A stretch of DNA of 64,000 nucleotides from Squalus acanthias (lineage: Eukaryota). The DNA is taken from NCBI GenBank assembly GCA_030390025.1, contig CM059434.1:25792001-25856000 (forward strand), given 5' to 3'. The notes beneath the pieces are model-generated. The model did not search any database. It was not told where the DNA came from and was given only the letters and a program-made list of their open reading frames with translations. This document shows, piece after piece, positions 7,902-34,338 of this stretch. Both the position numbers and the translations under genes were made by a program. Position 1 is the stretch's first letter. Every line of letters begins with the position of its first letter.

Positions 7902-8198
<297 letters not shown>

Positions 8199-8525: not shown

Positions 8526-8601
8526 TCTGGAGCTGTGTTTCTGACATACATGGGAAGCAGTTGCCATGTTTTGTAGATCTAAACCAAGCTACTGAGAAAT
8601 T

Positions 8602-10567: not shown

Positions 10568-10962
10568 TGTTCTCCATTAAAGACTAGACAAAAAAAAGTG
10601 ATATATTTCCTATTTAAATAGACTCTTATTCTAGACATACGCTAGGCCCGGATTCATTAAAAAAAATTAAAATATAGCAGATCTATACCCCACTGGAATA
10701 TTCATTCCCATTAGATTTTAGGGATTTAGGTTTATTATTGCAATAATGTTCACTACTTTGCTGACTAATGTTTTTACATATTTGTCAATTTTTTATTCCT
10801 AGCTTTTGCTGTGTGCATATTACCCACTGCTAGTCAAACAAACATCTAGTCTGTCCAATAAAAAAATTGTAGAATATAAATTTAGAATCAGATTTATCAC
10901 ACAAAAAAAATCATAGTTTTGACATATTAAATGAATGTCTTACAACATAATACAATATTTTA

Positions 10963-11184
<222 letters not shown>

Positions 11185-11244
11185 TTAATTTGTGCAGAAG
11201 AAACTGAATACAACAGACAATGCATCCTCACTTTACCAACATGA

Positions 11245-12450
11245 CTTATAGAACCACAGAATCCTACAGTACAGAAGGCTGCTATTTGGCCCATCTTTCT
11301 TTGAAAGAGCTGTCCAATTAGTCCCACTCCCCAGCTTTTTCCCCCATAACCCTGCAAATTAGTCCTCTTCAAGTACATGTCCAATTGCCCATTGAAAGTT
11401 ACTATGGAATCAGATTCCACCACTTTCAGGTAGTGTGATCCAGATCTCAACAGTCCTCTGTGTGAAGAAATTTCCTTATTTCCCCTCCAGCTCTTTTGCC
11501 AATTATTTTAAATCTACGACCTCTGGTTACCAACCCACTTACCAGAAGAAATAGTTTCTCCCTACTTGCTCATCAAAGCACCTCATTATTTTGAATACCT
11601 CTAATTGGTCTTCCCTTAATCCTCACTGCTCTAAAGGAGAACAATCCCAACTTCTCCAGTCTCTCACATAACTGAACTCTCATCCCTGGTATCGTCCCAG
11701 TAAACCTACTCTGTACCCTCTCTAGGACTTAATCTTTTCTATTCTACTTAATATCTTGTATACCTCCAACATCCCCCTTATTTGCCTCCTTGCAAGACTA
11801 AGAGCCCCAAGTTTTCCCAACTGCTTCTTCATAATTCAGTCCTTGGATTTTCCCTTGTGCCTCAGGTGACCAGAACTGAATGTAGTGCTCAAGGTGTGAC
11901 CTGATGAGATATATAAGTTCAGAATAGTCTCAGAATTGTACTCTATTGAGCTGACAATATAGTTTAGCATTGTTCACTTTGTTGAGTGCTGTTCTGAATG
12001 ACTGAAGTTAAGTGTTGTTTATCATTGTTCCCATAATTCTCAGTCACTTCCCCCAGTAAGTTCTACACCAATCATTATGCTCCATTTTTTTCTTCCTACA
12101 TGCAACACCTTAAAACTTGTATTTGTCTAAAAAATTCTTCTGCCATGTTTAGTCCACTTGTAATTTTTTCTGTAGTTCTGCTTCAGACTCTATTGTACTC
12201 TTTCCCTCTCTCCTGCCCTGTTTAGTACCTTTGCAAATTTGGCCAACTTGTATTGAACTGAATTGCTGAATTCAGATTATTTATGCAGATTAGAAACCGA
12301 AGAGGCCCTTCCATTAATTTCTTAGGCACTCCTCTCAATACAGCTCCTCAGCTTGACATCACTCCCCGATCACCCACAGCTTCCTCTTTCAGTCAATCCC
12401 TTTAAGATTTCATACTTCAATTGTACTAAATTCTTTAGGTGACAAGATAT
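11245..12450 (-). mobile_element. CR1 3' fragment (~11245-11730) followed by an older, more degenerate CR1 RT fragment
   Basis: Reverse-complement CR1 tail (CATAGAA-type repeat, GGCCCATC) and residual RT motifs. Confidence 0.65.
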
Positions 12451-12587
12451 TGATGAAGGCAGTTTATATAGCCTTTGGCCCATTTGATCTCATCTGTCGA
12501 GGAGGACAGTAATCCAATTACAGTTTTAAAATCCAAATATGCAGACGGAATTTTAATTTAACATTTTATCCAACAGCATGGATATTA

Positions 12588-12809
<222 letters not shown>

Positions 12810-13606
12810 TCAAGATGAAGCTTAAAAAATTATCAAAATTTTCATGTTGCACATCAACCCCAAAATAAGATTGCACAGTTGCAAACAAGCTGAACATCTG
12901 GTGTGCTATTTGTGGCTGGCAATTGCACTCACCACTTATCACCTTTACGTACACGATGCTTTAATTTTCACATTATAGTTACCCTATGAGCACTACCAAT
13001 ACAGTCAGGTCAATGGAATGCAAGGCACCAAGGGTGTCTGCCTCCTGAAGGTGTTTTCATATTTTGACATTCATTTCCCACTTCAAAAATCTTTAATAGG
13101 CTTCAGTGGCATTTGATGAAGGTGGCAAAGCAGCAGCAAGAAGTTCAAAAAGAAAGCCAATCACAATGCTATCAAAATTGCACAGCATTCCTAACAATTG
13201 GGTTTTGGCAGTGGTGCAGCTTGCTTTAATTAAATGACTGTGCAAGTTTAGATCAATTTGCTGCCATTGATGTAGCAAAGTGTCCCCAGTATTGTCCAAG
13301 GTCCTCAGCTTGCTAGGTAGTAACGGGCAGTCAAGAAGTCTCAGCAGCACGTAAGAATTGATTTAGAGAGCCAGGATAGAATGACTGCATTACTAGAGTA
13401 GTACATAATTCCAGATATTAAACTGGAAAGAATTTACCTGGTAGGGTCTTCGCTCTTCGAATGATACAAGTTATCCACACACAGTAGCAGTATAGTCTAA
13501 TTTGGTATAGTCTGTGAAATCACATGCTAAGGTTACATAAAATAGCACTATTTCCATTTCAATTGCCAGTTAAGGGAAACAATGTGATAAGCACTGTATA
13601 AACTCT

Positions 13607-15577
13607 CCGTCGCATCTGCTCAGACGATGTCACCTTCCATACTAGTGCTTCCGATATGCCTTCCTTTTTCCTCAACCGAAGATTCCCCTCTACCACCATG
13701 GTTGGCCTGGCCCTCGACCGTGTCCGTTCTATTTCCCGCACTTCTGCTCCCACCCCTTCTCCTCCCTCCCAGAGCCACGACAGGGTTACCCCGTCCTCAC
13801 CTTTCACCCCACCAGCCTCCACATTCATCGTATCTTTTCAGGAAATGCAACACCTGCCCTTTTATCTCCTCCCTTCCCACTGTCCAGGGCCCCAAACACT
13901 CCTTCCAGGTGAAACAGCAATTTACTTGTATTACTTGCAATTTAGTATACTGTATTCACTACTCATGATGCGGTCGCCTCTACATTGGTGAGGCCAAACG
14001 CAGATTGGGGGACCGCTTTGCGGAACATCTCCGTTCGGTCCATAAGCGTGACCTTGAACTTCCGGTTGCCTGTCACTTTAATTCTCTACTCCACTCCCAC
14101 TCTGACCTCTCCGTCCGAAGGCTCTTACACTGTTCGAACGAAGCTCAACGTAGCTCGAGGAACAGCACCTCATCTTTCGATTAGGCACTTCACAGCCTTC
14201 TGGACTTAACATCGAGTTCAACAATTTCAGACCATAACCTCTGCCCCTATTTTTTTTTCCACATGGCAGCTGTTGATGATTCGGCCATTCTTTTTCTGGT
14301 ATACATCAATGATTTGGACTTGAAAGTAGGAAGTATGATTAAGAAGTTTGCAGATAATACAAAAATTGGCCATGTGGTTGATAATGAAGAAGAAAGCTGT
14401 AAACTTCAGGAAGATATCAATGGACTGGTCTGGTGGGCAGAACAGTGGCAAATGGAATTCAACCCGGAGAAGTGTGCGGTAATGCATTTGGGGAGGGCTA
14501 ACAAGGCAAGGGAATACACTATAAATGGTAGGACACTGAGAAGTGCAGAGGATCAGTGGGACCTTGGAGTGCATGTCCACAGATCCCTAAAGGTAGCAGG
14601 ACAGGTAGATAAGGTGATTAAGGCGGCACATGGGATGCTTTCCTTTATTAGCCAAGGCATAGAATACAAGAGCAGGGAGGTTATGCTTGAACTGTATAAA
14701 ATACTAGTTAGGCCGCAGCTAAAATACTGCATGCAGTTCTGGTCACCACATTACAGGAAGGATGTGATTGCACTAGAGGGTGCAGAGGAGATTTACGAGG
14801 ATGTTGCCTGGGCTGGGGAATTTTAGCTATGAGGAAAGATTGGATAGGCTGGGGTTGTTTTCTTTGGAAGAGAGAGACTGATGGGAGATTTAATTGAGGT
14901 GTATAAAATTAGGAAGGATCTAGATAGAGTGGATAGGAAGGACCTACTTCCATTGACAGAAGGGTCAATAACCAGGGGGCATAGATTTAAAGTAATTGGT
15001 AGGAGGTTTAGAGGGGACTTGGAGAATTTTTTTCACCCAGAGGGTGGTGGGGGTCTGGAACTCACTGCCTGAAAGGGTGGTCGAGGCAGAATCCCTCATC
15101 GCTTTGAAAAAGTACTTGGATATGCACTTGAAGGGATATGCACTTGAAGTGCTGTAACCTACAAGGCTACGGACCAAGAGCTGGAAAGTGGGATTAGGGT
15201 GGATCGCTCTGTCGGCCAGCACGGACAAGTTGGGCCAAATGGTCTCCTGTGCTGTAAATTTCTATGATTCTATGATTCCCATTCACAACTCATCTTGACT
15301 TATCATTGGTTTCTTAACTTGTTCCATTACCATCTCCTTTTGCTTTGCACCATCCTCCTGTTTGTCTTTTAATCTCTCCTGCCTTCCATTCTATCACAGA
15401 CCTTCCCTTTTGTTCTTTCCTCCCCGCCTCCCTTTCCCTACCAGTGCTTAAAAATCGGTAACATCTCTAACTTTTTCCAGTTCTGACTAAAGGTCATCGA
15501 CCTAAAACGTTAACGGTTTCTCTCTCCAGATTCTGCCTCAGCTGCTCAGTTTTTCCAGCATTTTCTGTTTTTATTTC
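13607..15577 (+). mobile_element. 5'-truncated Penelope-like retroelement (end of RT + GIY-YIG endonuclease + pLTR with degenerate hammerhead), interrupted by a CR1
   Basis: RRICSDD..FFLNRRFP and LVYCIHYS*CGRLYIGEAKRRLGDRFAEHLR; mutated hammerhead at 15479-15514; direct repeat ATAAACTCT at 13598-13606 and 15578-15586. Confidence 0.85.
14291..15278 (+). mobile_element. 5'-truncated CR1 nested in the Penelope element
   Basis: YINDLD..KFADNTK..QFWSPHY ORF; (TATGATTC)n tail; flanking CCATTC repeats. Confidence 0.9.
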
Positions 15578-15789
15578 ATAAACTCTGCAGTTTTCACCAC
15601 ACATTCTAATGCACGGTTCTCATTTTATCCTTCTTGGAAGGAAGGATGCATGACATCCATTAGTATTCAAACCAAGATCGTATGGCCCCAACTTGGGCAC
15701 TAAACCTACGGAGCTACCCAAATCCCACCATATGCAGGGCATCATTCTAAACCCACAGTTCTTTGACCAAAAGCAGCAGGCACCAAGGC

Positions 15790-18362
15790 ATTTAGTTAAA
15801 TTCGAAACTCGGGTCTTAAATCTAAACAAAGCAAACTATGTAGGTATGAGGGGCGAGTTGGCTAAGGTAGATTGGGAAATTACATTAAAAGGTAAGATGG
15901 TAGAGAAGCAATGGCTAGCATTTAAAGAATACATAATTTACAACAAATATACATTCCTTTAAGGCACAAAAACACCTACAGGAAACGTGGTCCAACCATG
16001 GCTAACAAGAGAAGTTAAAGATAGCATCAGATCAAAGGAAGAGGCTTATAATGTTGCCAAAAATAGTAAGTCTGAGGACTGGGCGGATTTTAGAATTCAG
16101 CAAAGGAGGACTAAGAAATTGATAAACAAAGGGAAAATAGAATAGGAGAGTAAACTAGCGAGAGACATAAAAACAGACTGTAAAAGCTTCTATAGGTACG
16201 TAAAAAGGAAAAGATTAGCAAAAGCAAATGTGGGTCCCTTATAGGCTGAGACAGGAGAAATTATAACGGAGAATAAGGAAATGACGAGAAATTAAAACAA
16301 ATACTGCGTGTCTGTCTTCATGGAAGACGACGCAAAAAAATTCCCGGAAATAGTGGAGAACCAAAGGAACTGAAAGAAATGAGTATTAGTAAAAAAAATA
16401 GTACTGGAGAAATTAATGGGACTGAAAGCCAATAAATCCCCTGGACCTGATGGCCTACATCATAGGGTTTTGAAAGAGGTGGCTATAGAGATCGTGGATG
16501 CATTGGTTGTCATTTTCCAAAATTCCAGAGATTCTAGAACAGTTCCCGCAGATTGGAAGGCAGCAAATGTAACCCCACTACTTAAAGGAGGGAAGAGAGA
16601 AAACAGGGAACTACAGACCAGTTAGCCTGACATCAGTAGTAGGGAAAATGCTAGAATCTATTATTAAGGACATGGTAACAGGGCACTAAGAAAATAATAG
16701 GATTGGGCAGAGTCAACACGGATTTATGAAAGGGAAATCGTGTTTGACAAATCTGTTGGAGTTTTTTGAGGTTGTAACTAGCAGAATAGATAAGGGGGAA
16801 CCAGTGGATGTGATGTATTTGGATTTTCAGAAGGCATTCGATAAGGTGCTACACAAGAAGTTATTAAACAAAATTAGAGCTCATGGGATTGGGGGTAATA
16901 TACTAGCATGGATTGAGGATTGGTTAACGGACAGAAAACAGAGTAGGAATAAACGGGTCATTTTTAGGTTGGCAGGCTATAACTAGTGGGGTACCGCAAG
17001 GATCAGTGCTTGGGCCTCAGCTATTCACAATCTACATCAATGATTTGGATGAGGGGACCAAATGTAATATATCCAAGTTTGCTGATGATACAAAGCTGGG
17101 TGGGAATGTAAGTCGTGAGGAGGATGCAAGGAGGCTTCAAGGGGATATAGACAAGCTAAGTGAGTGGGCAAGAGCATGGCAAATGGAATACAATGTGGAG
17201 AAATGTGAAGTTATCCACTTTGGTAGGAAAAATAGAAAAGCGGAGTATTGTTTAAATGGTGAGCGATTGGGAAATTGTTGGTGTTCAGAGGGACCTGGGT
17301 GTCCTTGTACACGAATCACTGAAAATTAACATGCAGGTACAGCAAGCAATTAGGAAAGCAAATGGTATGTTGGCCTTTATTACAGAAGGATTTGAGTACA
17401 AGAGTAAAGACGTCTTACTGCAATTATATAGGGCCCTAGTGAGACCACACCTGGAGGATTATGTACAGTTTTGGTCTCCTTACCTAAGGAAGGATATACA
17501 GGAAACTCTTTATTAACCGGCACACAAATATCCGGAAATCTCTCTTAACCGGCAAAATTCTTGAGTAGGTAACCGGGGTTTTCCTTCATCTCTCGTTTAA
17601 GATTAACTTTAAAAAAAACCCCGAGGCGTTTGCCTTGTATCGGAGCGTGTAGATTGGGAGGGGAATGTGCAGCCCGGGTAGGCAGCGGACACGACAGATG
17701 GTCAGCTGGCGGTCCCCGGGGAGACGGAGCTCCGAATGCAGGCGCATGTCAATGTGTACGGGGCTCTCGTACGTTGGTAGATATAACTCTCCGTTATCTG
17801 GACTTTTTGATAAACCGGCACCACGCCGGTCCCGGTTAATAAAGAGTTTCCTGTACTTGCCATAGAGGGAAGTGCAACGAAGGTTCACCAGACTGGTTCC
17901 TGGGATGGGGGGGATTGTCCTATGGAGGAGAGATTGAGTAGACTAGGCCTATATTCTCTGGAGTTCAGAAGAAGAGGTAATCTCATTGAAACATACAAAA
18001 TTCTTACAGGGCTTGACAGGGTAGATACAGGGAGGATGTTTCCTCTGGCTGGGGAGTCTAGAACCAGGAGTCACAGTCTCAGTATAAGGGGTCGGCCATT
18101 TAGGACTGAGATAAGGAGAAATATCTTCACTCAGAGGGTGGTGAATCTTTGGAATTCTCTACCGCAGAGGGCTGTGGAGGCTCAGTCGTTGATTATATTC
18201 AAGACAGAGATCGATAGATTTTTGAATATTAAGGGAATCAAGGGATATGGGGATAGTGCAGGAAAGTGGAGCTGAGGTAGAAGATCAGCCATGATCTTAC
18301 TGAATGGCAGAGCAGGCTCGAAGGGCCAAATGACCTACTCCTGCTCCTATTTTTTATGTTCT
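15790..18362 (+). mobile_element. 5'-truncated CR1 ORF2 + 3' UTR, interrupted by a MITE
   Basis: KSPGPDG, SCLTNLLEFF, YLDFQKAFDKV, KFADDTK; tail CCTGCTCCTATTTTTTATGTT. Confidence 0.92.
17499..17853 (+). mobile_element. Tc1/mariner-pogo (Tigger-like) MITE, copy 1
   Basis: TIRs CAGGAAACTCTTTATTAACCGG / CCGGTTAATAAAGAGTTTCCTG, TA duplication, cleanly splits the CR1 sequence GGATA-TA-CTTGCC. Confidence 0.9.
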
Positions 18363-20290
18363 CTTAACAGTCTGGGATACATTTCAACCGGGCCTGGGGA
18401 TTTATCCACTTTCAAAAGATGCTAAACTCCTTAATACTTCCTCTTTCACTATGTTTATTTCATCTCATACTTCACACTCCTCTTCCCTGATTGCAGTGTC
18501 TGCATCGTCCCTCTCTTGTGAAAACAGATGCAAAGTATTCATTAAGAACCATACCCTAGTCTTCTGCCTCCACACACAGGTTACCTTTATGGTCCCTAAT
18601 TGGCCCTACTCTTACTTTAGTTATCCTCTTGCTCTTAATGTATTTATAAAACATCTTTGGGTTTTCCTAGATTTTACTTGCCAATATTTTTTCATGCCCT
18701 CTTTGCTTTCCTAATTTCCTTTTTAATTTCACCCCTGCACTTTATATTCTTCTAGGGTTTCTGCAGTATTGAGCCTTCAGTATCGGTCATAAGCTTCCTT
18801 TTTTTCCCTTTATCTGACCCTGTATGCCCCTCGACATCCATGGAGCTCGAAATTTGTTCGTCCCACCCTTTTTCTTTAAGGGAACATACTTGCTCTGAAC
18901 CCTTACCATCTCCTCTTTGAATGCCTCCCACTGCTCTGACACTGATTTACCTTCAAGTTTCTGTCTCCAGTCCACTTTGGCTAAATCCCATCTCAGCTTA
19001 GTAAAATTAGCTTTTCCCCAATTGAGAACTTTTATTCCTGGTCTATCCTGGTCCTTTTCCATAACTACCCTAAATCTAACTGAATTATGATCACTACCAC
19101 CAATATGCTCTCCCACGGATACCTTTTCCACCTGCCCAGCTTCATTCCCTAAAACTATGTGCAGAACCGTCCCCTCTCTTGTTGGGCTTGCTACGTACTG
19201 GCTAAAAAAATCCTCCTGAATGCATTTTAAGAATTCTGCTCCCTCTATACCTTTCACACTAATTTTATCCCAGTTAATATTGGGGAAGTTGAAATCCCCT
19301 ACTATTACTGCCCTGTTTTTGCTCATCTCAGAAATTTGCCTACATATTTGCTCTTCTATCTCCCTCTGACTTTTGGGGGTCTATAGTACAATCCCAGCAG
19401 TGTGATCGCCCCTTTTTTTGTTTTTCAGTTCAACCCATATGGCCTCATTGGATGATCCTTAAGATATCATCCCTCCTCACAGCTGTAATTGTTTCTTGCA
19501 TTAATATTGCAACCCCCCCCCCCCAATCTTTTTTATCCCCCCGCTCTCTCGTCTGAAACCCTGTAAGTAGGAATGTTCAGTTGCCATTCCGGCCCTTCTT
19601 TCAGTCATGTCTCAGTAATAGCTATATCATACTCCGTGTTTATCTGTGCCCTCAGCTCGTCTGCTTTATTCCCTAGACTCCTTGCGTTGGAAGTATATCC
19701 CATTTAGCACTGCCAAACTCCCTTGTTGTTTATTTTATAGCCTTTGTTTCCTCTGCCTTCCAAACTCGCTTACTAATTTTCTGCCTTCCATTTCCAGCTT
19801 TGCTTCTCTCCCTTCTGAATCTACTCTCTGGTTCCCATCCCCCTGCCAAGCCAGTTTAAACCCTCCCCAACAATACCAGCAAACCCCGCCCCCCTCCGCG
19901 AGGATATTGATCCCGGTCCTGTGGAGGTGCAACTCGTCCGGCTTGTACAGATCCCACCTCCCACAGAAACGGTCCCAAGCCTCAGGAATCTAAAGCCCTC
20001 CAGCCTGCACCATCTCTCCAGCCACGCATTCATCTGCTCTATCCTCCAATTTCTGTACTCACTAGCACATGGCACCGGGAGTAATCCGGAGATTACTACC
20101 TTTGAGGTCCTGCTTTTCAATCTCTTTCCTAGCTCCCTAAAATCTGCCTGCAGGACCTCATCCCTCTTTCTACCTATGTTGTTGGTACCGATATGGACCA
20201 CGACCTCTGGCTGTTCACCCTCCCCCCTCAATGTCCTGCAGTGACATCCTTGACCCTGGCACCAAGGCGGCAACATACCATCCTGGAGTC
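18363..20290 (-). mobile_element. CR1 internal fragment (ORF1 esterase through endonuclease, to KSPGP)
   Basis: VVHIGTNNIGRKRDEVLQ, IVGDFNFPNINW, GSDHNSV. Confidence 0.9.
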
Positions 20291-22103
20291 ACAGTGCACA
20301 CTAAGGGAAGGTTAGAAGGATTACTGAAGGAGACAGGAAGGGACTCAGTGGCTGGTGGTTTACATAGAGGCATTTTACACAAGGAGAAATAAGATATGGT
20401 TATCTCAAGTGCAAGGATTCTTTTAAAACTTAAACATATGGAATGCAAAGTAACATTCTCAGGTATACTTCCAGTTTTGGGTAAGAGAGAGGAGTTCCCT
20501 CAAAAATGATGGATGTAAATAAGTGGTCGACAATGGTGCAAACAATTCCATCTTTTGCTTTACTCAAAGCTGGTATGGTAGTACCAGTGTGTTGAAATCA
20601 CTAGATAGTAATTTTCTAGCAGGCAAGAAATTTGTTTTGTGTGCATGGATATGGAGATATGGTATAGATAAAGAGTGATCAGAGACTCAGTGTAGAAGAG
20701 AGAATGACTGGACAGGAAGATAACTGGGAATATTTTCACAACAAAAAAAAAACTACAGGAGAGACAGGCTGCATCTAAACAAAGCAGGAACAATGAGTGG
20801 TAGCCAATTAAGAATCATAAACCAGACAGGTGGATAGTGGAAGGAGGACGACAGGGGGAACAACAGATCACAGATAAGTGTGTGGAGGGAAAGATAGTTA
20901 ACAGGCAGGCATGGATGCAAACTCAAACATACGGTAACAAGATACCAGGAACATGGATAAAGGGGCATAGAAGGAGGCAAAATCTGCAATAAAATGTATA
21001 TACATGAATGCTAGAAGCATTAAAAATAAGATGTAGAAACCAGAGTTGTTGTGGCAGTAGGTAAAGACAATGTATTAAATATCTGAAACATAGGTTACAC
21101 CAGAGAATGGTAATAAATACAATATAGTGGTCATATAGTGTGTTCAGAAAATAACACAGGAAAGCCCTATATATGTCAGACACACGAGATTAAAAGTCAT
21201 TTCAGTATGAGGAGTAAAGACACACAATAAACTGATCAGGTTGGATATCTTTAATATGGGTGTGAAGCATTTGGGACGTTCCGGGATTCTGAAAGACCAT
21301 ATAAATGCAAGTTCTTTCTTTCTGAAAGGACAAAACTAACACTAGGACTTATGTTACAGACCATCAAGTCAGAACAAGGAAGTCAGTCAGCTTACTCTGT
21401 GAATGCATGTGTAAACAAAAAAGCGCTATTTTAACGTGCAACTGCAAGCAATCAAATATAAATTGGGAATAGTCAAGCAGCTCAGAGTCAGAATTAGTAA
21501 GTATTATTAAAGGCCAGGAGCCAGTGTCTATGTTTAAAAGAACTAATTTTAGATGGAACAATTTAAGATGATTGGCAGGGTTTATTGTACAACAGTTCAG
21601 TAGAGAACACACTTAAAAGCGTAATCTTGAGCACGCAAGATAAATGCATGCCTAGGATCAGCAAGCCTATACTGAACATACATGACCCTAAACAGATGAT
21701 CAAAAAAAAAGCAGAAATGAGGAAAAAACAACAAACACATGTAGAGGTAGCTGAAGGGGGTTACTGGGATGAATATATGAACTTACAATGTTAAAATGGT
21801 GGCCAAAGAGGCAAACAGAGACAGAGGAGGAAAAAGCATATGCTCAACATGAAGAGCAAGATTTATTTTTCTAGTGTCACACTAGTAAGAGCATAAAATA
21901 AGAGGTGTAAGCTTTTAAAAAGATGAAAATGGTGCTGAGACGATTACTGCAAGATAAAAAGATAGCATTCTGAATGATTGCTTCAAGTATGCACAAGAAA
22001 GGGCTTGAACAAAATGTCCTCCATTAAATAGTGATAATCCAAATCGAATTAATGGCTGATGTAAATGAGATGGAAGATCTGGACAAGCTAGTAAGGGCTG
22101 AAT

Positions 22104-22271
22104 CACAGAATCACAGAATCCCCACAGTGCAGATAGAGACCATTTCGGCCCATCGAGCCTGCACCGACACATATCCCACCCTATCCCCATAACCCCACGT
22201 ATTTAATCCCCCTAACACTAAGGGTCAATTTATCATAGCCAAATCAACCTAACCCGCACATCTTTGGACTG
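22104..22271 (-). mobile_element. V-SINE/HE1-like shark SINE 3' fragment with a CR1-derived tail
   Basis: (CACAGAAT)n tail, TTCGGCCCATCGAG, AACCTAACCCGCACATCTTTGGACT. Confidence 0.6.
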
Positions 22272-22454
22272 AAGGATACATTCAACTGTTTAGGTGATGA
22301 TCTGTTCATCGGAGAAGGATGAACAAATGAAAAATATGGAATTTAATGGACCGAGTACAGATACCAAAAAGAGCATAACACCACCAAAATCCTCAGTTAG
22401 TTATTAATTCTTTCAAATTATGTTTTAATTCCCTTACACTATATCGGTGACTTA

Positions 22455-22727
<273 letters not shown>

Positions 22728-23493
22728 CTATTTGGAACAAAGCTCATTTCTTTTATAAAAACTTAATTTCTTCTATCCTGTCTTCACGCATATGTTAACA
22801 CCTTTCCGGTACCTTGCCCAAGAGGCCACTTTCAGGCATGTACTGGTAGACTCTTGAGTGACCTCACGCAATTTCCATGCACAAGTACCTTCCAGCAAGT
22901 GGCAGCAGGACCACCAGCTAATTTTTCTCCTCCTTCACCCAGGGACACGGAAGCAAATTGTAGCACTCAAACAAACATTCTGGCCGAGATCAGCTAGCGC
23001 AGCACAGATTAGGAAGCAAACCTGGGAACTTCTGGTCTATACGGCTTAGCTATACACTCCCTTTAGTAAAATTAAGCCATAATATTGACTGAATACAAGC
23101 CACCCCAACACGAAGAAATCCAAAATAAGCATTGTAGGAATTAAGTGCATTTCATAGACTGCCTTGCTATGTGTTTAAAAAATAAATTCTAAAAGCAAGT
23201 TAAATCTGTCAAAGTGGCTTTAAATAATACTGGTCAACTAGCTCTGCTGCTGGATGAAGCACTGCATTACACCAGATTGTGCATTCGTTGTTTATTTAGT
23301 ACTTGGAACTTACATACAGCACATATCGGGACAATTTTAATATTTCTGAAAGTTTCTGGGAAATGCAAGCTACTTTTTGCCCTTGTATAAAAATAATTTA
23401 CAGAATTTAGGAACTGCCATAATAGTTGTGAATGAAGGTCGGTATGCTGGTTCAACAGCAGTACACAGTCAACCAAGAACAAGTTTTACTTAC

Positions 23494-23517
23494 ATTCGAT
23501 AGGTTCGATACATTATT
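23494..23517 (-). CDS. CKAP5: CKAP5 24-nt alternative microexon (adds IMYRTYRI; reads KLK-IMYRTYRI-QAR)
   Basis: cttctttcactgcatttccttggaaag|AATAATGTATCGAACCTATCGAAT|gtaagt; phase 2-2 matches the host intron; UGC motif close to the 3' splice site. Confidence 0.8.
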
Positions 23518-24029
23518 CTTTCCAAGGAAATGCAGTGAAAGAAGTCAGAAGACAGATTTAGACAAAATAAAGGTTTAAGCACAATTATAAAAACAACAGA
23601 CATGAAGCACAAAAAAAAGTGAAGCAAAGGAAACAGCATCCTGCCCTTCACACTGGTTTGCAGTAACTGCTTCAGTGTATTGTTAATAAAAGTAGAATTC
23701 TAAATTATTCAACATTAGGCTTCAACATATTATACTTTTCTAAGTGAATAAACTGTCCATAACATTTCATGTGCAAAACTTGCAACAGTAATCCTAAAGT
23801 GAAAGATTCCTCCATAGAACCCAGAAGACAGCCACTGTAACAGGAGTGAAGCAAAAAGACTGAAATATAGCACGTGCCATTACATGATCTCCTCTTTGGT
23901 AAGAGGAAGAATGTCTGCTTGGCAATAAACCACTAGACAAATTTTATTGAGCATTATTCTTTAAAAAAAAGTAATTGCAAAAAGTTATACGTCTCTAATC
24001 TCAATTAGACCCTCAACAATTGGAGTAGC

Positions 24030-24225
24030 AGAAATCTGGAATTCTCTTCCCCCAAAAGACTGTGGATGTTGGGATAATTGGAGCGGTGAAGACTAAGATC
24101 GATAGATTTTTGTTAGGTCAGGTTATCAAGGGACATGGAGCAGAGGTACAGATCAGCCATGACCTAATAGAACAGTGGAGCAGGCTCAAGGGGCTGAATG
24201 GCTTAATCCTGTCCCTATGTTTCAA
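24030..24225 (+). mobile_element. Short CR1 3' tail
   Basis: TCTGGAATTCTCT...GATCGATAGATTTTTG...GATCAGCCATGA...GGAGCAGGCTC. Confidence 0.7.
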
Positions 24226-24261
24226 TCAAAATAAGACACTTCTTTGCACTAACCTTTAAAA

Positions 24262-25510
24262 TTACATTACATAGGATATACGGCAAAGAAACAGGCCATT
24301 CGGCCCAACCAGTCCATGCCGGTGTTTATGCTCCACTCGAGCCTCCTCCCGTCTTTCCTCATCTAAATCCATCAGCATAACTCTCTATTTCCTTCTCACT
24401 CATGTTTGTCCAGCCTCCCCTTAAATGCATCTATACTATTCGCTTCAACCACTCCCTGTGGTAGCGAGTTCCACATTCTTACCACTCTTTGGGTAAAGAA
24501 GTTTCTTCTGAATTCCCTATTGGCTTTCTTGGTGACTATCTTATATTGATGGCCTCTAGTTATGCTCTTCCTCACAAGTGGAAACATTCTCTGTATCCAC
24601 TCTATCAAAACCTTTCATAAATTTATAGATCTCTACTAGGTCACCCCTCAGCCTTTTTTCAAGAGAAGAGACCCAGCCGGTTCATCCTTTCCTGATATGT
24701 ATACCTTTGCATTTCTGGTATCATCCTTGTAAATCTTCTCAGCACCCTCTCCAGTGCCTCTATATCCTTTTTAAAATATGGCGACCAGAACTGCACGCAG
24801 TATTCCAAGTGTGGCCCAACCAAGTTTCGATACAGGTTTAGCATAATTTCCCTACTTTTCAATTCTATCCCTCTAGAAATAAACCCTAGTGCTTGGTTTG
24901 TATTTTTAATGGCCTTGCTAACCTGTGGCACAACTTTTAGTGATTTGTGTTAACATAGAAACATAGACGATAGGAGCAGGAGTAGGCCATTCGGCCCCTC
25001 GAGCCTGCTCCGCCATTCAATGCGATCATGGCTGATCATCCAAATTCAGTACCCTGTCCCTGCTTTCTCCCCATATCCCTTGATCCCCTTAGCCTTAAGA
25101 AATATATCTAACTCCTTCTTGAATATATTTAATGAATTGGTCTCAACTGCCTTCTGTGGTAGAGAATTCCACAGGTTCACCACTCTGGGTGAAGAAATTC
25201 CTCCTCATCTCAGTCCTAAATGGCTTACCCCTTATCCTTAGACTGTGACTCCTGGTTCTGAACTCCCCCGCCATCAGGAACAGCCTTCCTGCATCTAGTC
25301 TGTCTAGTCCTGTTAGAATTATAAGTTTCAATGAGATCCCCTCTCATTCTTCTAGACTCTAGCAAATAAGCCTAATCGACCCAATCTCTCTTCATACGTC
25401 ATTCCTGCCATCCCAGGTATCAGTCTGGTGAATCTTCACTGTACTCAGAGATCCCTTTGTTCCTTTACCCCACCTAGACTCGCACCCTCCAAGTGATAAG
25501 TGACCTCCCT
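24262..25510 (-). mobile_element. CR1 3' fragment with a second CR1 3' fragment nested at ~24950-25445
   Basis: Two distinct reverse CR1 tails (ATTACATTACATAG; AACATAGAAACATAG) and RT C-terminal ORFs. Confidence 0.85.
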
Positions 25511-25674
25511 TGAAAGCACTGTTCCTTTACTGGTTATGTGGCTATCCATTACCTCGATCTTCTATTTCTGTTGGTTTCAGAAGAACTATCATGCTGAATG
25601 CAGAAGCCAAGTATAAGACCAGTTTGTAGCTGCTCATTTGTGGCTGCTCAAAAGGGACTACAAAGAATCAAAAT

Positions 25675-25968
25675 GTCAGCTGTGGCTCAGTTGGTAACAC
25701 TTGCACCTCTGAATCAGAAGGATGCGCATTTAAGTCCCATTCCAGAGATAAGCACAAAATCTAGGTTGACACTTCACTGCAGTACTGAGGGGTGCTGCAC
25801 TGTGTGAGGTGCTGTCTTTCGGGTGAGATGTTAAATTTCTCAGGTGGGCGGAAAAGATCCCATGGCACTACTTTTAAGAGCAGCAGGGAAGTTCTTCTGG
25901 TGTCCTGACCAATACTTAAAGCTCAACCAACTTCACTGGAAAAAAACCCAGACTATCTGGTCATTATC
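25675..25968 (+). mobile_element. DeuSINE copy
   Basis: A box GTGGCTCAGTTGG; body homologous to 1-260. Confidence 0.8.
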
Positions 25969-25970
25969 CT

Positions 25971-26040
25971 AGTTCAGATGAAGGATCACAAGACCTGGAA
26001 CATTAACCCTAGATTCTGCTCTCTACAGATGTCAACTGAC
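25971..26040 (+). mobile_element. Degenerate Penelope pLTR/hammerhead remnant
   Basis: AGTTCAGATGAAGGATCACAAGACCTGGAACATTAAC resembles 15479-15514 and 32683-32715. Confidence 0.5.
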
Positions 26041-27460
26041 ATACGAATTAGGAGCAAGAGTAAACCACTCGGCCCCTCGAGCCTGCTCCGCCATTCAACG
26101 AGATCATGGCTGATCGGATTACTCCACATTCCTGCCTACCCCCGATAACCTTTCACCCCCTTGCTTATCAAGAATCTATCTACCTCTGCCTTAAAAATAT
26201 TCAAAGACTCTGCTTCCATCGCCCTCTGAGGAAGAGAGTTCCAAAGACACTCAACCCTCTGAGAAGAAATTTCTCATCTCATCTCTGTCTTAAATGGGTG
26301 ACCCCTTATTTTTAAACAGTGACCCCTAGTTCTAGATTCTCCCACAAGAGGAAACATTCTCTCTACATCCACCCTGTCCAGACCCCTCAGGATCGTATAC
26401 GTTTCAATCAAGTCACCTCTTACTCTTCTAAACTCCAGCGGATACAAGCCTAGCCTGTCCAGCCTTTCCTCATAAGACAACCCGCCCATTCCAGGTATTA
26501 GTCTAGTAAACCTTCGCTGAACTGCTTCCAATGCATTTACATCCTTCCTTAAATAAAGGAGACCAATACTGTACACAGTACTCCAGAGATGTGGTCTCAC
26601 CAATGCCCTGTATAACTGAAGCATAACCTCCCTACTTTTGTATTCAATTCCCCTTGCAATAAACAACAAACATTCATTAGCTTTCCCAATTACTTGCTGT
26701 ACCTGCATACTAAACTTTTGCGATTCATGCACTAGGACACCCAGATCCCTCTGCATCTCAGAGCTCTGCAATCTCTCACCATTTAGATATGCTTCTTTTT
26801 TATTCTTCCTGCCAAAATGGACAATTGCACATTTTCCCACATTATACTCCATTTGCCAGATCTTTGCCCACTCACTTAACCTATCTATATCCCTTTGTAG
26901 CCTCCTTATGTCCTCTTCACAATTTACTTTCCTACCTATCTTTGTGTCATCAGCAAATTTAGCAACCATACCTTCGGTCCCTTCATCAAAGTCATTTATA
27001 TAAATTGTAAAAAGTTGAGGCCCCAGCACTGATCCCTGTGGCACACCACTCATTACATCTTGCCAACCAGAAAATGACCCATTTATGCCTACTCTCTGTT
27101 TCCTGTTAGCTAGCCAATCTTCTATCCATGCCAATATGTTACCCCCTACACCATGAGCTTTTATTTTCCGCAATAACCTTTGATGTGGCACCTTATCAAA
27201 TTCCTTCTGGAAATCTAAGTACAGTACATCCACTGGTTCCCCTTTATCCACAGCACGTTACTTCCTCATAGAGCTCCAATAAATTGGTTAAACATGAGTT
27301 CCCCCTCACAAAACCATGTCGACTCTGCCTGATTACCTTGAACCTTTCTAAGTGCCCTGCTATAACGTCTTTAATAATAGCTTCTAACTTCTTACCTATG
27401 ACAGATGTTAAGCTAACTGGCCTGTAGTTTCCCCTGCTTTCTGTCTCCCTCCCTTTTTGA
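26038..27460 (-). mobile_element. 5'-truncated CR1 (325-aa RT ORF remnant)
   Basis: ORF 26274-27251 with [23 protein letters not shown]. Confidence 0.92.
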
Positions 27461-27462
27461 AT

Positions 27463-30290
27463 ATAGAAACATAGAAAAATAGGAGCAGGAGTAGGCCATA
27501 AGGCCCTTCGAGCCTGCTCCGCCATTCAATATGATTATGGCTGATCCTCTATCTCAATACCATATTCCTGCTCTCTCCCCATACCCCTTGATGCCTTTTG
27601 TGTCTAGAAATCTATCTATCTCCTTCTTAAATATATTCAGTGACTTGGACTCCACAGCCTTCTGTGGTAGAGAATTCCACAGGTTCACCACCCTGAGTGA
27701 AGAAATTTCTCCTCATCTCAGTCCTGAATGTCCTACCCGATATCCTGAGACTGTGACCCCTCCTTCTAGACCCCCCAGCCAGGGGAAACATCCTCCCTGC
27801 ATCCAGTCTGTCTAGCCCTGTCAGAATTTTATACGTTTCAATGAGATCCCCCCTCATTCTTCTAAACTCTAGTGAATACAGGCCTAGTCAACCCAATCTC
27901 TCCTCATAAGACAGTCCTGCCATCCCAGGAATCAGTCTGGTGAACCTCCGCTGCACTCCCTCTATGGCAAGTATATCCTGTATTAGGTAAGGAGACCAAA
28001 ACTGCACACAGTACTCCAGGTGTGGTCTCACCAAGGCCCTGTATAACTGTAGTAAGACATCCTTGCTCCTGTACTCAATTCCTCTTGCAATGAAGGCCAA
28101 CATACCATTTGCCTTCCTAACTGCTTGCTGCACCTGCATGTTTGCTTTCAATTACTGGTATACAAGGACACCCAGGTCCCTTTGTACATCAACAGTTCCC
28201 AATCTATCACCATTTAAATAATACTCTGCCTTTCTGTTTTTCCTACCGAAGTGGATAACTTCACATTTATCCACGTTATACTGCATCTGCCATGTATTTG
28301 CCCACTCACTCAACTTGTCTAAATCGCCTTGAAGCCTCTTTGCATCCTCCTCACAACTCACTGTCCCACCTAGTTTTGTGTCGTCAGCAAACTTGGAAAT
28401 ATTACATTTGGTTCCCACATCCAAATCATTGATATATAGTGTGAATAGCTGGGGCCCAAGCTCTGATCCCTGCGGTACCCCACTAGTCACCGCCTGCCAG
28501 CCCGAAAAAGACCCATTTATTCCTACTCTGTTTCCTGTCTGTTAACCAATTTTCAATCCATGCCAGTATATTACCCCCAATCCCATGTGCTTTAATTTTG
28601 CACACTAACCTCTTCTGTGGGACTTTATCAAAGGCCTTCTGAAAATCCAAATACACCACATCCACTGGTTCTCCCATATTCTACCAGTTACATCCTCAAA
28701 AAACTCCAGGAGGTTTGTCAAACACCATTTCCCTTTCATAAATCCATGTTGACTTTGTCTAATCCCGTTGATATTTTCTAAGTGTCCCGTTATCACATCC
28801 TTTATAATAGACTCTAGCATTTTCCCTACTACTGATGTTAGGCTAACCGGTCTGTAGTTCCCCATTTTCTCTCTCCCTCCTTTTTTAAATAGTGGGGTTA
28901 CATTTGCCACCCTCCAATCTACAGAAACTGTTCCATAATCTATAGAATTTTGGAAGATGACAACCAATGCATCCACCATTTCCATGGCTACCTCTTAGTA
29001 CTCTGGGATGCAGATTATCAGGCCCTGGGGATTTATCAGCTTTCAGTCCCATTAATTTCTCCAGCACTATTTTTTTTTTTTACTAATACTAATTTCCTTT
29101 AATTCCTCCTTCTCACTAGACCCTTGGTTCCCTAGCATTTCTGGGAAGTTATTTGTGTCCTCTTCCGTGAAGACAGAACCAAAGTATTTGTTCAATTGCT
29201 CTGCCATTTCCTTGTTCCCCTTATAAATTCTCCCGTTCCTGACTGTAAGGGACCTACATTTGTCTTCACTAATCTTTTTCTTTTTACATACTTGTAGAAA
29301 CTTTTACGTTCCTTGAACGTTTACTCTCATACTCTATTTTTCCACTCTTAATCAATCTCAGTCCTTTTTTGCTGAATTCTAAACTGCTCCCATCTTTAGC
29401 ATTCTAGATTTCTCTCCACCGTGACCCTCCTCCCCCCACCTTATTTAATTTAAAGCCCTATCTACCTCCCTAGTTATTCGATTCGCTAGAACTCTGGTCC
29501 CAGCATGGTTCAGGTGTAGTCCGTCCCAACGGAATAGCTCTCTTTCCCCAGTACTGGAGCTAGTGCCCCACAAATCGAGACCCACTTCTCCCACACCAAT
29601 CTTTGAGCCACACATTAATCTCTCTGATCCTTTTGACCCTATGTCAATTTGCTCGTGGTGCCGGTAATAATCCAGAGATTATGACCTTTGTGGTTCTGCT
29701 TTTTAATTTAGTCCCTAGCTGCTCAAACTCTCAGCAGAACCTCTTTCTTTGTCCTACCTATGTCGTTGGTACCTACGTGGACCACGACAACTGGATCTTC
29801 CCCCTCCCACTCCAAGTTCTTCTCCAGCCTGGAGGAGACGTCCTTTACCCGGGTAGGCAACATAGCCTTCGGGACTCACGCTCCTGGCTGCAGAGAACAG
29901 TGTCTATCCCCCTAACTATACTGTTACCTACTACAACCACCTTCCTTTTTACTCCCCCCCACTTGAACGGCTTCCTGTACCACAGTGCCGAGGTCAATTT
30001 GCTCATCCTCCCCGCAATTGTCCACAAGGGTTGCAAGAACCTCGAATCTATTGAACAAGTGCAGGGACTGAGGCTCCTGTAATACTACCTCCTGGACCCC
30101 CGTACCTGCCTCACTCGCAGTCACACCCTCCTGTCCCTGACCACGTGTCAATTCTAAAGTATTTAATCTAAGGGGGTGTGGCTGCCTCCTGGAGCAAAAA
30201 GGTCCAGGTAACTCACTCCCTCCCTGACGTCTCGTAATGTCTGCAGCTCGGACCCGAAGTTCCTCAAGCCGCAGACACTTACCGCAGATG
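27463..30290 (-). mobile_element. CR1 ORF2 3' part (27463-~29395) joined to a CR1 ORF1 region (~29395-30290)
   Basis: RT ORFs 27888-29067; ORF1 VVVVGNSIVRGID..LCCLPG; the endonuclease region is missing at the join. Confidence 0.88.
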
Positions 30291-30319
30291 ATGCTTGTAA
30301 GCCATAAAAAGGTGGCATA

Positions 30320-30660
30320 AGTGCTAGATGTTTGGATGAAAAGTGCGCGCCTTCAAACCACGAAGGTCCTAGGTTTGATCCAGATTTGTGCTGCATTGGG
30401 TAATCTCAGCCAGAGCAACAGTTGGGGTGCTACAATTGGCATCAGCACCTCTAGGTTGGGAGGGAGGTTAAGGGGAAAAAGCCAATCTGCTAAAGTTCAT
30501 TTTCTCCACCCAATATATCCAGCCATAGTTAATATCCTGGAGATACAGTTAAGGCTGACAAGAAGGTTGCCTCTTTGCAAAGTACTTGAGGTCAACCAAT
30601 CCCCATGGAACCATAACATGGCAAGAAATCAACAGTTTCAAAGGTAGAGGAGAAAACTGG
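30320..30660 (+). mobile_element. Possible old tRNA-derived SINE
   Basis: B-box-like GAAGGTCCTAGGTTTGATCC followed by a GC-richer body; family not identified. Confidence 0.3.
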
Positions 30661-31017
30661 CAATAATGGGGTGGGGAAGAGAAGGGGAAAAAAAAGCACA
30701 TACCGCTAAATAGTGTTACTTTTCAAATGAATATATATTCCAATAGCAAATCAAGCATTTTTTGAAATGGTAGTCAGGGATGAGCAATGACATCTTAAAT
30801 GAAACCATGTAATCTTCCCTTTCAGTACAATGCAAAGATAACTCCAGCCAACCACCTTTATACCTTTACTAGATTACTGGGTTATCAAGGACTTCCATTA
30901 AAAAATCCATAATTAAGATGATTGGGAATGTAAAGCAAGAATGAGTCTTGATACTTATTGCTAAAATTCAATGCTTCTGCAAAGCATCAAACACTAGTTA
31001 AATACAAAATGACCTAC

Positions 31018-31038
31018 CTGCATAGACAGAAGTCAGAA
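31018..31038 (-). CDS. CKAP5: Candidate 21-nt in-frame CKAP5 microexon (N-SDFCLC-S/R) or recursive splice site
   Basis: ttctccaattttcag|TTCTGACTTCTGTCTATGCAG|gtaggt; phase 2-2, no stop codon. Confidence 0.45.
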
Positions 31039-31429
31039 CTGAAAATTGGAGAATTTACAACTTTAATAAAGGACACACTAAGATAGTGGGAAACCAGATG
31101 ACCACTTTTATTCAGTTATATGAATGATGAATAAGAAAAAAAAATATTTCATCATACTTCAAGATGCCTCAGCTCAACAAAACAGAAGCATTCTCCTTGA
31201 TAAGGTCAATGCAATAAAGAGTGCCTGGATTATTCATTCCACCTTGTAATTGTGGACATCTTGTAGTGGCCAGTAAATTCAGTAGCGCCCACCTGACTAG
31301 AAGACAGATCTTGGATCCAGAAGGTGACCTATTTGACACCCACATGGTAGAACAATCACTCCTAACCTTTGTCAATGCTGGAAAGAGAAGCAGTAACTTC
31401 AGATTAAATTCTAGCGACACTTTAAACCG

Positions 31430-33240
31430 TGGATAAGCAGTGGCAAACATTTAAAGGAATATTCCAAATTTTCAACGAATATACATTACATTCAGAAATA
31501 AAAACTCCACGGCAAAAGTGATCCATCCATGGCTAACTAAAGAAGTTAAGGATAGTATTAGATTAAAAGAGGCTTATAATGTTGAAGAATAGTAGTAAGC
31601 CCGAGGATTGGGAGAGCTTTAGAAACCAGCAAAGGATGACAAAAAAAATTAAAAGGGAGACAATAGAATGAGAGTAAACTAGCAAGAAATAAAAACAGAT
31701 TGTAAGAGCTTCATAAAAAAAGAGTAGCAAAAGTAAGCGTTGGCCTCTTAGTGGCTGAGACAGGAAAAATTATAATGGGGCATAAGGAAATAGCAGACTT
31801 TAAACAAATATTTAGTATCTGTCTTCACAGTAGAAGACACAAAAAGCATACCAAAAATAGTGGGGAACCAAGAGGCTAATAAGAGTGAGGAACTTAAAGT
31901 AATTATCAGTAGAGAAAAAGTACGAGAAACTAATGGGATTAAAAGCCGACAAATCCCCTGGAGTGTTGGTCGACATCCTAGGGTTCTAAAAGAGGTGGCT
32001 GCGGAGATATTGGATGCATTGGTTGTGACCTTCCAAAATTCCCTAGATTCTAGAACCTTCTCAGCGGATTGGAAGGTACCAAATGTAACCTTACTATTCA
32101 AGAAAGGAGGGAGCGAGAAAACAGGGAACTACAGGCCAGTTAGTCTGACATCAGTCATCGGGAAAATGCTGGAATCCATTATTAAGGAAGTGGTAACAGG
32201 GCACTTAGAAAATCATATGATTAGGCAGTCAACATGGTTTTATGAAAGGAAATCATGTTTAACAAATTTATTAGAGTTTTGAGGATGTAACTAGCAGGTT
32301 AGATAAAATGGGAAACAGCGGATGTAGTGTATTTGGATTTCCAAAAGGCATGCAATAAGGGGCCACATAAAAGGTTGCTATGCAAGATAAGGACTCATGG
32401 GGTTGGGAGCAATATATTAGCGTGGTAGAGGATTGGTTAACAGACAGAAAATAGAGTAGGGATAAACACATCATTTTCCGGTTGGCAGGCTGTAACTAGA
32501 GGTGTGCCGCAAGGCTCAGTGCTTGGGCCTCAGCTATTTACAATCTATATTAATGACTTAGATGAAAGGGCAGAGTGCAATTTATCCAAGTTTGCTGACG
32601 ATACAAAGCTAGGTGAGAAAGTAAGCTGTGAGGAGGACGCAAAGAGCCTGCAAAGGGATATAGACAGGTTAATGTTTCAGGTCTGACGAAGGGTCACAGA
32701 CCTGAAACGTTAACTCTGTTTTTCTCTCCACAGATGGTGCCTGGCCTGTTGAGTGTTTCCAGCATTTTCTGTTATTTCACTAGATTGATCCCTGGGTTGA
32801 GAGAGTTGTCCTATGAGGAGAGATGAGTCTATACTCTCTGAAGTTTAGAAGAATGAGAGGTGATCTCATTGAAACATAGACGATTCTGAGGGGTATTGAC
32901 AGGATAGATGCCGAGTGGTTGTTTCCCATGGCTGGAGAATTTAGAACTAGGGGGCATAGGCTCAGGATAAGGGGTCGACCATTTAAGACTGAGATGAGGA
33001 GGAATTTCTTCACTCAGAGGGTTGTGAATCTTTGGAATTCTCTACCCCAAAGGCTGTGGATGCTCGGTCACCGAGTATATTCAAGGCTGAGATAGATAGA
33101 TTTTTGAAATCAAGGGACATGGGGATCAGGCGGGAAAGTGGAATGGAGGTCGAAGATCAGCCATGATCTTATTGAATGGCAGAGTAGGCTCGAAAGGCCA
33201 TATGGCCTAGACCTGCTCCTAATTCTTAAGTACTTATGAA
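31430..33240 (+). mobile_element. Decayed 5'-truncated CR1
   Basis: [31 protein letters not shown]; 3' tail. Confidence 0.88.
32668..32778 (+). mobile_element. Solo Penelope pLTR with a minimal hammerhead core, inserted in CR1
   Basis: CTGACGA-AGGGTC-ACA-GACCT-GAAA-CG-TT; downstream sequence matches the pLTR at 15510-15577; preceded by a short inverted copy. Confidence 0.75.
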
Positions 33241-33608
33241 TTTGGATCACATCTGAAGAATTGGAATTGAGAGCTAAACTTTACCATGCAGGCAGCTTTA
33301 AATCCATAGTATCTATGAAGTAAAAAGGGGATAAAAAATCATGTTACATTAAAAACTGATTAATGGAGGGCAACATACAACTATGAATGCCTAATGACAA
33401 AACTGCAGCTGCTTGGAGGCACCTTTGTATGTTTATTCAAGTAGAGAAGGCCACGTAGTTGTTAAAAGCTCTGAAAAGGCCAAATAGCCATTCGATTTTC
33501 CTTATTAGGTTGGCTTTCTGCCCAAGGTACATTGACCTAAAACCACACTCACTTAGTAATCACCCCCATTACTCAGTCTGACTGAAATCATGCAAACAGT
33601 GCTACTTA

Positions 33609-33806
<198 letters not shown>

Positions 33807-34338
33807 CTAGGATTAAAAAGCAGAGATGAAGTCCAAGAAAAAGATCTACAAAAATCAGTTCCATAGCCTTTTCCTTGCCATAAATTTATTACTCGATGTC
33901 TAGAGTATAAATAATCCTATACTTATAAATACAAAATCTGCACGATAATTAGAATAGGCATTGCAAAGAACCTTACGACCAGTACAAATAAACTTGAGGT
34001 TTTGTCAACAATGATGACGACTCAAGTTAAGAGAGTAAAACTCAAAAGCAAAAACTTATAGTAGGAAGGACAGAAATAAATCTTTCTATAGTGAAGAACT
34101 GTATGGAGCAGAGAAGGAAAGAGAAAATTTTGAAGACCTCCATCAGCACTAAATGAAAGCGGTTATGCTCTTCAAAACTATTTGGTCAATTTGATACCAT
34201 TTGAAAGTTGACAAAAAACAAACTGTGGGACTAGACTGTAATGCCCTGCTTGTGCCAGCAGCCAATCATCCAATAAGGGCAATGAAGCAACCTCAGGAAA
34301 AACCCAAATTGTTGCCGATATCTTATCCAATGATCATC

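What the first reader, a model, noticed from the sequence alone, without database searches (positions are those of the whole stretch)
23494..23517. Hidden 24-nt CKAP5 microexon (K-IMYRTYRI) with a neural-type signature
Seen: strong donor GTAAGT, pyrimidine-rich acceptor with UGC ~17 nt before the AG, frame-preserving phase 2-2, and a TE-free setting inside an 11-kb TE-filled intron. Established: UGC next to the 3' splice site is the SRRM3/SRRM4 microexon enhancer. I recall the peptide KIMYRTYRI from other vertebrate CKAP5 isoforms, which is unverified here. Inference: an ancient neural microexon adding a basic, Tyr-rich motif after TOG5 that may tune microtubule or partner binding.
Basis: partly seen in the sequence, partly recalled or inferred. 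Interest (0 to 1): 0.7.

Follow-up and report, generated by a model that had tools for sequence, protein, structure and literature searches.

The report
Known retina microexon in shark CKAP5
A 24-base stretch in a cartilaginous fish's gene for the microtubule builder ch-TOG encodes the same peptide as an optional exon already catalogued as retina-enriched in mammals, so it is very likely that known exon, predicted to add a short binding motif to a floppy linker; it is not new, though what the motif binds appears untested.

Summary
Observation confirmed: minus strand 23517-23494, AG|24 nt|GTAAGT, UGC at -17, phase 2-2, turning N into KIMYRTYRI. It is a published exon. The mouse exon chr2:91599604-91599627 has this peptide core and is listed as retina-enriched microexon MmuEX0011484; human HsaEX0015457 is its likely orthologue. 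'Neural' needs correcting: inclusion is 56-68% in retina, 14-17% in neural tissue, under 1% elsewhere; it responds to SRRM3/4, not MSI1, and falls in srrm3-mutant zebrafish eyes. Annotated isoforms from sharks and rays to apes carry the insert almost unchanged. Inclusion in this species was not seen: 4 of 4 runs laid (tissue unknown) show the skip junction. The insert lies in the predicted-disordered TOG5-TOG6 linker, 41 residues after the TOG5 lattice-binding helix; likely a sequence-specific docking motif, target untested. The scan found the same exon before on other DNA (e1-9970714). Already known; low interest.

The parts
23494..23517 (-). 24-nt phase 2-2 CKAP5 microexon; replaces N by KIMYRTYRI
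   Evidence: same peptide core in mouse and zebrafish exons and in annotated isoforms
23518..23640 (-). 3' splice region: AG-free zone, pyrimidine tract with UCUU runs at -35 and -25, UGC at 23534-23532, acceptor AAG
   Evidence: UGC as SRRM3/4 motif per PMC9303857 section 9
23488..23493 (-). 5' splice site GTAAGT of the microexon
33637..33806 (-). Upstream constitutive exon: last TOG5 helix (lattice-binding K, M, R, R) and first part of the TOG5-TOG6 linker
   Evidence: helix in model; spacing matches Xenopus K1444/M1448/R1452/R1455; its 3' end is joined to 22635 in 4 of 4 runs
22456..22635 (-). Downstream constitutive exon: rest of the linker with conserved [10 protein letters not shown] patch
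24037..33231 (.). Repeat-filled part of the upstream intron (several related direct and inverted copies; CR1/LINE-like is my recalled label, not tested)
1324..63418 (-). Part of the CKAP5/ch-TOG gene in the window, 16 tblastn blocks covering residues 853-1718 of a catshark orthologue

Best explanation
This 24-nt stretch encodes the same peptide core as the published CKAP5 retina-enriched microexon of mouse and zebrafish and is very likely its shark orthologue, likely included through SRRM3 mainly in photoreceptors, where it would add a sequence-specific, basic and aromatic docking motif to the predicted-disordered TOG5-TOG6 linker and most likely give ch-TOG an extra microtubule-lattice contact beside TOG5. 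Steps: (1) exon anatomy and open frames: shown here. (2) Orthology: shown by peptide and position for mouse, zebrafish and many annotated proteins; for human inferred from gene, length and ape proteins. (3) SRRM3/4 dependence and retina enrichment: shown by others in human, mouse and zebrafish; inferred for this shark. (4) Disordered linker: predicted. (5) Selection on the peptide rather than on length or nucleotides: supported by conservation. (6) The target is tubulin lattice and tails: inference, about 0.35. Odds: identity 0.97, retina/SRRM3 pattern in shark 0.75, sequence-specific motif 0.65.
For: Mouse coordinates are identical in two supplements, tying MmuEX0011484 (retina 55.98, neural 16.66, others 0.72) to the IMYRTYR exon; human HsaEX0015457 is 24 nt (retina 67.67, neural 13.5, others 0.67), dPSI +25 to +70 with SRRM3/4 in 8 of 8 experiments and 0 with MSI1 in 2 of 2; zebrafish DreEX0021859 falls from 44.27 to 12.2 in srrm3-mutant eyes at 5 dpf. 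The window exon differs from the zebrafish and from the mouse exon at 5 of 24 bases each, all synonymous (read by eye). Anchoring on flanks only, 155 of 266 proteins have a nine-residue block: 133 KIMYRTYRI, 13 with R for K, 7 with L for I, 2 with I for M; 85 have the one-residue skip form, 2 other lengths, 24 unclassified. 5 of 17 cartilaginous-fish proteins listed carry the insert at the same junction. Two SRRM_C loci over the Pfam cut-off exist in this genome. AlphaFold2 on a stingray fragment folds TOG5 and TOG6 and leaves residues 272-388, insert included (308-316), at pLDDT under 50. The insert starts 41 residues after the TOG5 helix whose K, M, R, R touch alpha-tubulin, and tubulin tails sit near basic patches (PMC13376574 section 9); charge of the stretch rises from +5 to +8. 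Basic inter-TOG linkers promote lattice association (PMC4142611 passages). Tagged CKAP5 was seen in primary cilia of NIH/3T3 cells (n = 1; PMC12583597 passages).
Against: No inclusion junction was seen in this species. CKAP5 is on the human and mouse RetMIC sheets but not on the chicken or zebrafish ones, so strict retina enrichment may not be ancestral; a zebrafish time course shows ckap5 rising from 0 to 0.34 (my reading of the columns as hours and inclusion). The conservation counts are biased: two of three searches used insert-bearing queries, listed only the best 120 of 405 and of 239 hits, and rows are isoform clusters, not independent species. The model shows no structure or docking for the insert, and no binding experiment was found. 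Invariant hydrophobic residues fit a protein pocket as well as the lattice. Four conserved photoreceptor microexons were dispensable in mice (PMC9509328 passages).
Confidence: 0.55

Rival explanations
1. Same exon and regulation, but the insert docks on a non-tubulin partner (a Ca2+ sensor such as calmodulin, a ciliary or basal-body adaptor, or a gamma-TuRC/SLAIN2-side factor) and changes where ch-TOG is recruited.
For: I, M, Y, Y, I and the flanking K-L and Q-x-R are near-invariant (modal frequency 0.93-1.0, flanks about 0.5, where YRTY is fixed by the search pattern and flanks are ungapped). The inclusion form fits a loose 1-10 hydrophobic spacing with net +4 and a helical moment near 0.5 (motif definitions recalled). 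The C-terminal region binds gamma-TuRC through several parts, not only TOG6.
Against: 12 of 14 recalled motif patterns gave no match (PP1 RVxF, YxxPhi, LIR, IQ, SxIP, LC8 and others); the two that matched are very degenerate. No partner is known for this linker in the passages read.
Confidence: 0.3
2. One reading: a general neural microexon, included across shark brain rather than mainly in retina.
For: Found as developmentally regulated in mouse brain and zebrafish with UC and UGC marked Yes/Yes; not on the zebrafish or chicken RetMIC sheets; the UGC code is shared by neural and retinal microexons.
Against: Human and mouse neural inclusion is 13.5 and 16.66 against 67.67 and 55.98 in retina; zebrafish eye inclusion climbs from 11 to 44 between 48 hpf and 5 dpf and needs srrm3.
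Confidence: 0.2
3. The insert only lengthens or charges the linker, or has an effect too small to see in the laboratory.
For: It lies in a predicted-disordered linker; single and triple deletions of conserved photoreceptor microexons had no phenotype in mice; most of 45 zebrafish lines had mild or no phenotype.
Against: A spacer would tolerate substitutions, yet the core is nearly invariant while synonymous sites and linker flanks drift. The ckap5 zebrafish line in that study is a truncation, not a microexon-only deletion.
Confidence: 0.15
4. A dead or chance exon-like sequence in this species.
For: 4 of 4 runs laid show the skip junction.
Against: Intact splice sites, UGC and AG-free zone, exact peptide, synonymous-only divergence, and inclusion isoforms annotated in other sharks and rays.
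Confidence: 0.03

Closest known systems
Mouse Ckap5 MmuEX0011484 / human CKAP5 HsaEX0015457 (retina-enriched microexon, RetMIC; PMC9303857 Dataset S1, S6)
   Same: Gene, 24-nt length, peptide core (mouse sequence seen), position in ape and rodent proteins, UGC layout
   Different: 5 of 24 synonymous base changes against mouse; tissue pattern and SRRM3 dependence not measured in the shark; human exon sequence itself not seen
Zebrafish ckap5 DreEX0021859 (intron 34-35; PMC9303857 Dataset S10, PMC12626420 supplementary file 1)
   Same: Identical peptide kIMYRTYRi, same skip junction, UC repeats and UGC
   Different: 5 of 24 synonymous changes; shark intron is 11 kb and repeat-filled, the zebrafish intron was not measured here
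Annotated CKAP5 isoforms of other cartilaginous fishes (Hemitrygon akajei X4, Pristis pectinata X2, Heterodontus francisci X2, Chiloscyllium plagiosum X1)
   Same: Same insert at the same junction, flanking exons 87-97% identical to the window's
   Different: Other species; these are gene models whose RNA support I did not see
SRRM3/4 (eMIC)-dependent neural and retinal microexon programme
   Same: 3-27 nt, in frame, UGC next to the acceptor, insert in an unstructured region
   Different: Nothing of kind; the binding target of this insert is not described in the papers searched

Membership tests
Orthologue of the CKAP5 24-nt microexon | Host gene is CKAP5/ch-TOG | tested here: met
Orthologue of the CKAP5 24-nt microexon | Same length, phase, junction and peptide | tested here: met
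Orthologue of the CKAP5 24-nt microexon | Alternative: skip form exists in transcripts | tested here: met
   33637-22635 junction in 4 of 4 runs laid (RNA status of the runs is the tool's guess)
Orthologue of the CKAP5 24-nt microexon | Inclusion form exists in this species | tested here: inconclusive
   Not seen in 4 of 11 listed runs, contigs of unknown tissue; annotated in 5 of 17 cartilaginous-fish proteins
SRRM3/4-dependent microexon | 3-27 nt, frame-preserving | tested here: met
   24 nt
SRRM3/4-dependent microexon | UGC close upstream of the acceptor with pyrimidine tract and strong donor | tested here: met
   UGC at -17, 75% pyrimidine at -45..-5, GTAAGT
SRRM3/4-dependent microexon | Regulator genes present in the genome | tested here: met
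   two SRRM_C loci over cut-off; naming them SRRM3 and SRRM4 is inferred
SRRM3/4-dependent microexon | Inclusion responds to SRRM3/4 | not testable with these tools
   shown for the human and zebrafish exons; not for the shark
Retina-enriched microexon (RetMIC) | Inclusion much higher in retina than in all other tissues | not testable with these tools
   met in human and mouse, not listed for chicken and zebrafish; no labelled shark retina run was listed
Known short linear motif classes (PP1 RVxF, YxxPhi, LIR, IQ, SxIP, LC8) | Match to the consensus | tested here: not met
   patterns recalled from memory

The most novel reading that the evidence does not exclude
The insert completes an undescribed linear motif, unchanged since sharks and bony fish parted, that turns the mitotic polymerase ch-TOG into a photoreceptor form which grips stable ciliary microtubules or a basal-body partner and is needed for outer-segment upkeep.
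Probability: 0.2. Interest if true: 0.55.

Novelty: already known. Interest (0 to 1): 0.15.

Why it matters
The exon and its regulation are published, so the finding adds little: one more cartilaginous-fish orthologue, in line with the published view that the retina microexon programme dates to early jawed vertebrates (that study compared human, mouse, chicken and zebrafish only). What remains open is the function of a near-invariant insert in the linker between the lattice-binding TOG5 and the gamma-TuRC-binding TOG6. It would be a clean natural switch to test in existing XMAP215 assays, but deletions of similar exons have often had no phenotype.

Tried and rejected
Reads: no holder on record as RNA was listed. 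Of 11 listed runs, 4 were laid; none has a contig over 23494-23517, which is no evidence of absence because contigs drop minor forms and tissues are unknown. The other 7 runs were not examined, so inclusion in this species stays open. Solved structures: no PDB chain matches the downstream exon peptide at E up to 10. Folding of the insert onto TOG5 or TOG6: not predicted; no skip-form model and no complex job were run. Known motif classes: 12 of 14 recalled patterns absent. MSI1 control: dPSI 0 in 2 of 2 human experiments. Rbfox sites: none within 300 nt on either side. Outgroups: 0 of 149 unnamed distant representatives carry the motif, uninformative because default isoforms skip it. A published function of the insert: not found in paper searches (open-access library only); files 13-18 of the PMC9303857 supplement were not searched and the PMC10987577 supplement could not be read, and either may hold more on this exon. 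The mouse peptide is printed r...m at its split codons, whereas rodent proteins have K...I; I took the proteins as right.

Full report
Observation. On the minus strand, 23517-23494 is a 24-nt segment between AG and GTAAGT, with UGC at -17, UCUU runs at -35 and -25 and no other AG up to -125. It lies in the 11,001-nt intron between exons 33806-33637 and 22635-22456 of CKAP5. Both splice forms are open; inclusion replaces N by KIMYRTYRI. Loose splice-site rules give over 100 candidates in this intron; a stricter microexon filter, set after I had seen the exon, leaves this one hit in the window and 0.005 per simulated intron. The surroundings are repeat-poor rather than proven repeat-free: repeats fill about 24037-33231 and short cross-matching pieces lie at 22917-23050.

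Host. The flanking exons are closest to shark and ray CKAP5 (up to 53/55 and 57/59 identical residues), and the genome is 3.7 Gb, so this is a cartilaginous fish, probably a shark. The 301-nt stretch around the exon has one match in the genome.

It is a published exon. PMC9303857 (seen: abstract, sections 7-9, supplement search of 12 of 18 files) lists CKAP5 HsaEX0015457, 24 nt, as a human retina-enriched microexon (retina 67.67, neural 13.5, others 0.67) and MmuEX0011484 in mouse (55.98, 16.66, 0.72). The human exon rises by 25-70 points with SRRM3 or SRRM4 in 8 of 8 experiments and by 0 with MSI1 in 2 of 2; zebrafish DreEX0021859 falls from 44.27 to 12.2 in srrm3-mutant eyes at 5 dpf. It was one of the RT-PCR examples. 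PMC12626420 (seen: abstract, Results part 1 of 2, rows of supplementary files) gives the zebrafish and mouse exon sequences; the mouse coordinates equal those of MmuEX0011484 and the zebrafish peptide equals the window's. Against a strict retina label: CKAP5 is not on the chicken or zebrafish RetMIC sheets.

Conservation. Against zebrafish and against mouse the window exon differs at 5 of 24 bases, all synonymous (by eye), so selection acts on the peptide. Among 266 proteins from three searches, a flank-anchored count gives 155 with a nine-residue block (133 exact, 22 with one or two conservative changes), 85 skip forms, 2 of other length and 24 unclassified, 4 of which visibly hold the insert. 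Carriers include apes, rodents, a bat, monotreme and marsupial, birds, squamates, frogs, gar, teleosts and 5 of 17 cartilaginous-fish proteins. The count is biased towards the query-like insert (two insert-bearing queries, best 120 listed of 405 and of 239) and rows are not independent species. None of 149 distant unnamed representatives has the motif, which does not date the exon.

Expression here. Four of 11 listed runs were laid on 22400-23700; all four join 22635 to the end of the upstream exon, so the skip form exists; none shows the microexon. They are contigs of unknown tissue, so inclusion in this species remains unshown. Two genes with the SRRM_C domain are in the genome; that they are SRRM3 and SRRM4 is inferred.

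How it likely works. An AlphaFold2 model of the TOG5-linker-TOG6 part of a stingray inclusion isoform (71-sequence alignment) folds both domains and leaves residues 272-388 at pLDDT under 50, the insert (308-316) included. The insert begins 41 residues after the last TOG5 helix, whose K, M, R, R spacing matches the Xenopus residues that contact alpha-tubulin in the cryo-EM structure; tubulin tails lie near basic patches of TOG5, and TOG6 with neighbouring parts binds gamma-TuRC (PMC13376574, seen: passages and section 9 part 1 of 2). Inclusion raises the local charge from +5 to +8 and joins conserved K-L and Q-x-R flanks into one 14-residue patch. Basic linkers aid lattice binding in this family (PMC4142611 passages) and tagged CKAP5 was seen in primary cilia once (PMC12583597 passages). 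I therefore commit to: SRRM3-driven inclusion mainly in photoreceptors adds a sequence-specific motif that most likely gives an extra lattice contact beside TOG5. The target is inference (about 0.35); a non-tubulin partner is nearly as likely (0.3). Twelve of 14 recalled motif patterns do not match.

Results against importance. Conserved photoreceptor microexons in Ttc8, Cep290, Cc2d2a and Cacna2d4 were dispensable in mice (PMC9509328 passages), and most zebrafish microexon deletions were mild. The ckap5 line in that study is a truncation, so this exon has not been tested there. No paper on the insert's function came up in searches; unread supplements (PMC9303857 files 13-18, PMC10987577) may bear on this. 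PMC8911335 and PMC13406575 (passages) added nothing.

Earlier scan. Finding e1-9970714 reports the same exon in another genome with the same verdict; I had reached this reading before the look-up and did not check its DNA.

Verdict. Observation confirmed, interpretation partly supported (retina-enriched rather than broadly neural in mammals; not hidden). Already known; interest 0.15.

Noticed in passing
window 22647-23492: All four runs have low-depth intronic contigs only downstream of the microexon, and one (X1) ends at 23492, next to the donor; could hint at a partly spliced intermediate, but only 183 nt of the upstream intron were laid and the runs may hold DNA.
   Followed up: no
window about 33590-33595 (minus strand): An Rbfox-type TGCATG lies about 40 nt after the upstream exon's donor, 10 kb from the microexon; none within 300 nt of the microexon.
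   Followed up: no
window 22456-22635: The linker holds a second conserved patch ([10 protein letters not shown] ... [11 protein letters not shown]) that is also at pLDDT under 50 in the model and has no PDB match; a candidate constitutive binding motif near the insert.
   Followed up: partly
window 24150-33231: Several 70-90% alike repeat copies in both orientations can form long inverted pairs across the upstream intron (14 pairs).
   Followed up: no
window 59586-59662: A very short intron (about 77 nt) in a gene whose other introns are mostly kilobases long.
   Followed up: no
P0267 (unnamed representative, 54% identical): A distant CKAP5 keeps the KL-N-Q skip junction; its genome would be the place to look for an older form of the exon.
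   Followed up: no
P0049: A protein labelled Lampetra planeri has a linker like that of percomorph teleosts, so the label may be wrong; not used as an outgroup.
   Followed up: partly
L002, L003 (G000:C25 and C13): Two SRRM_C-domain exons, both open over the match.
   Followed up: partly
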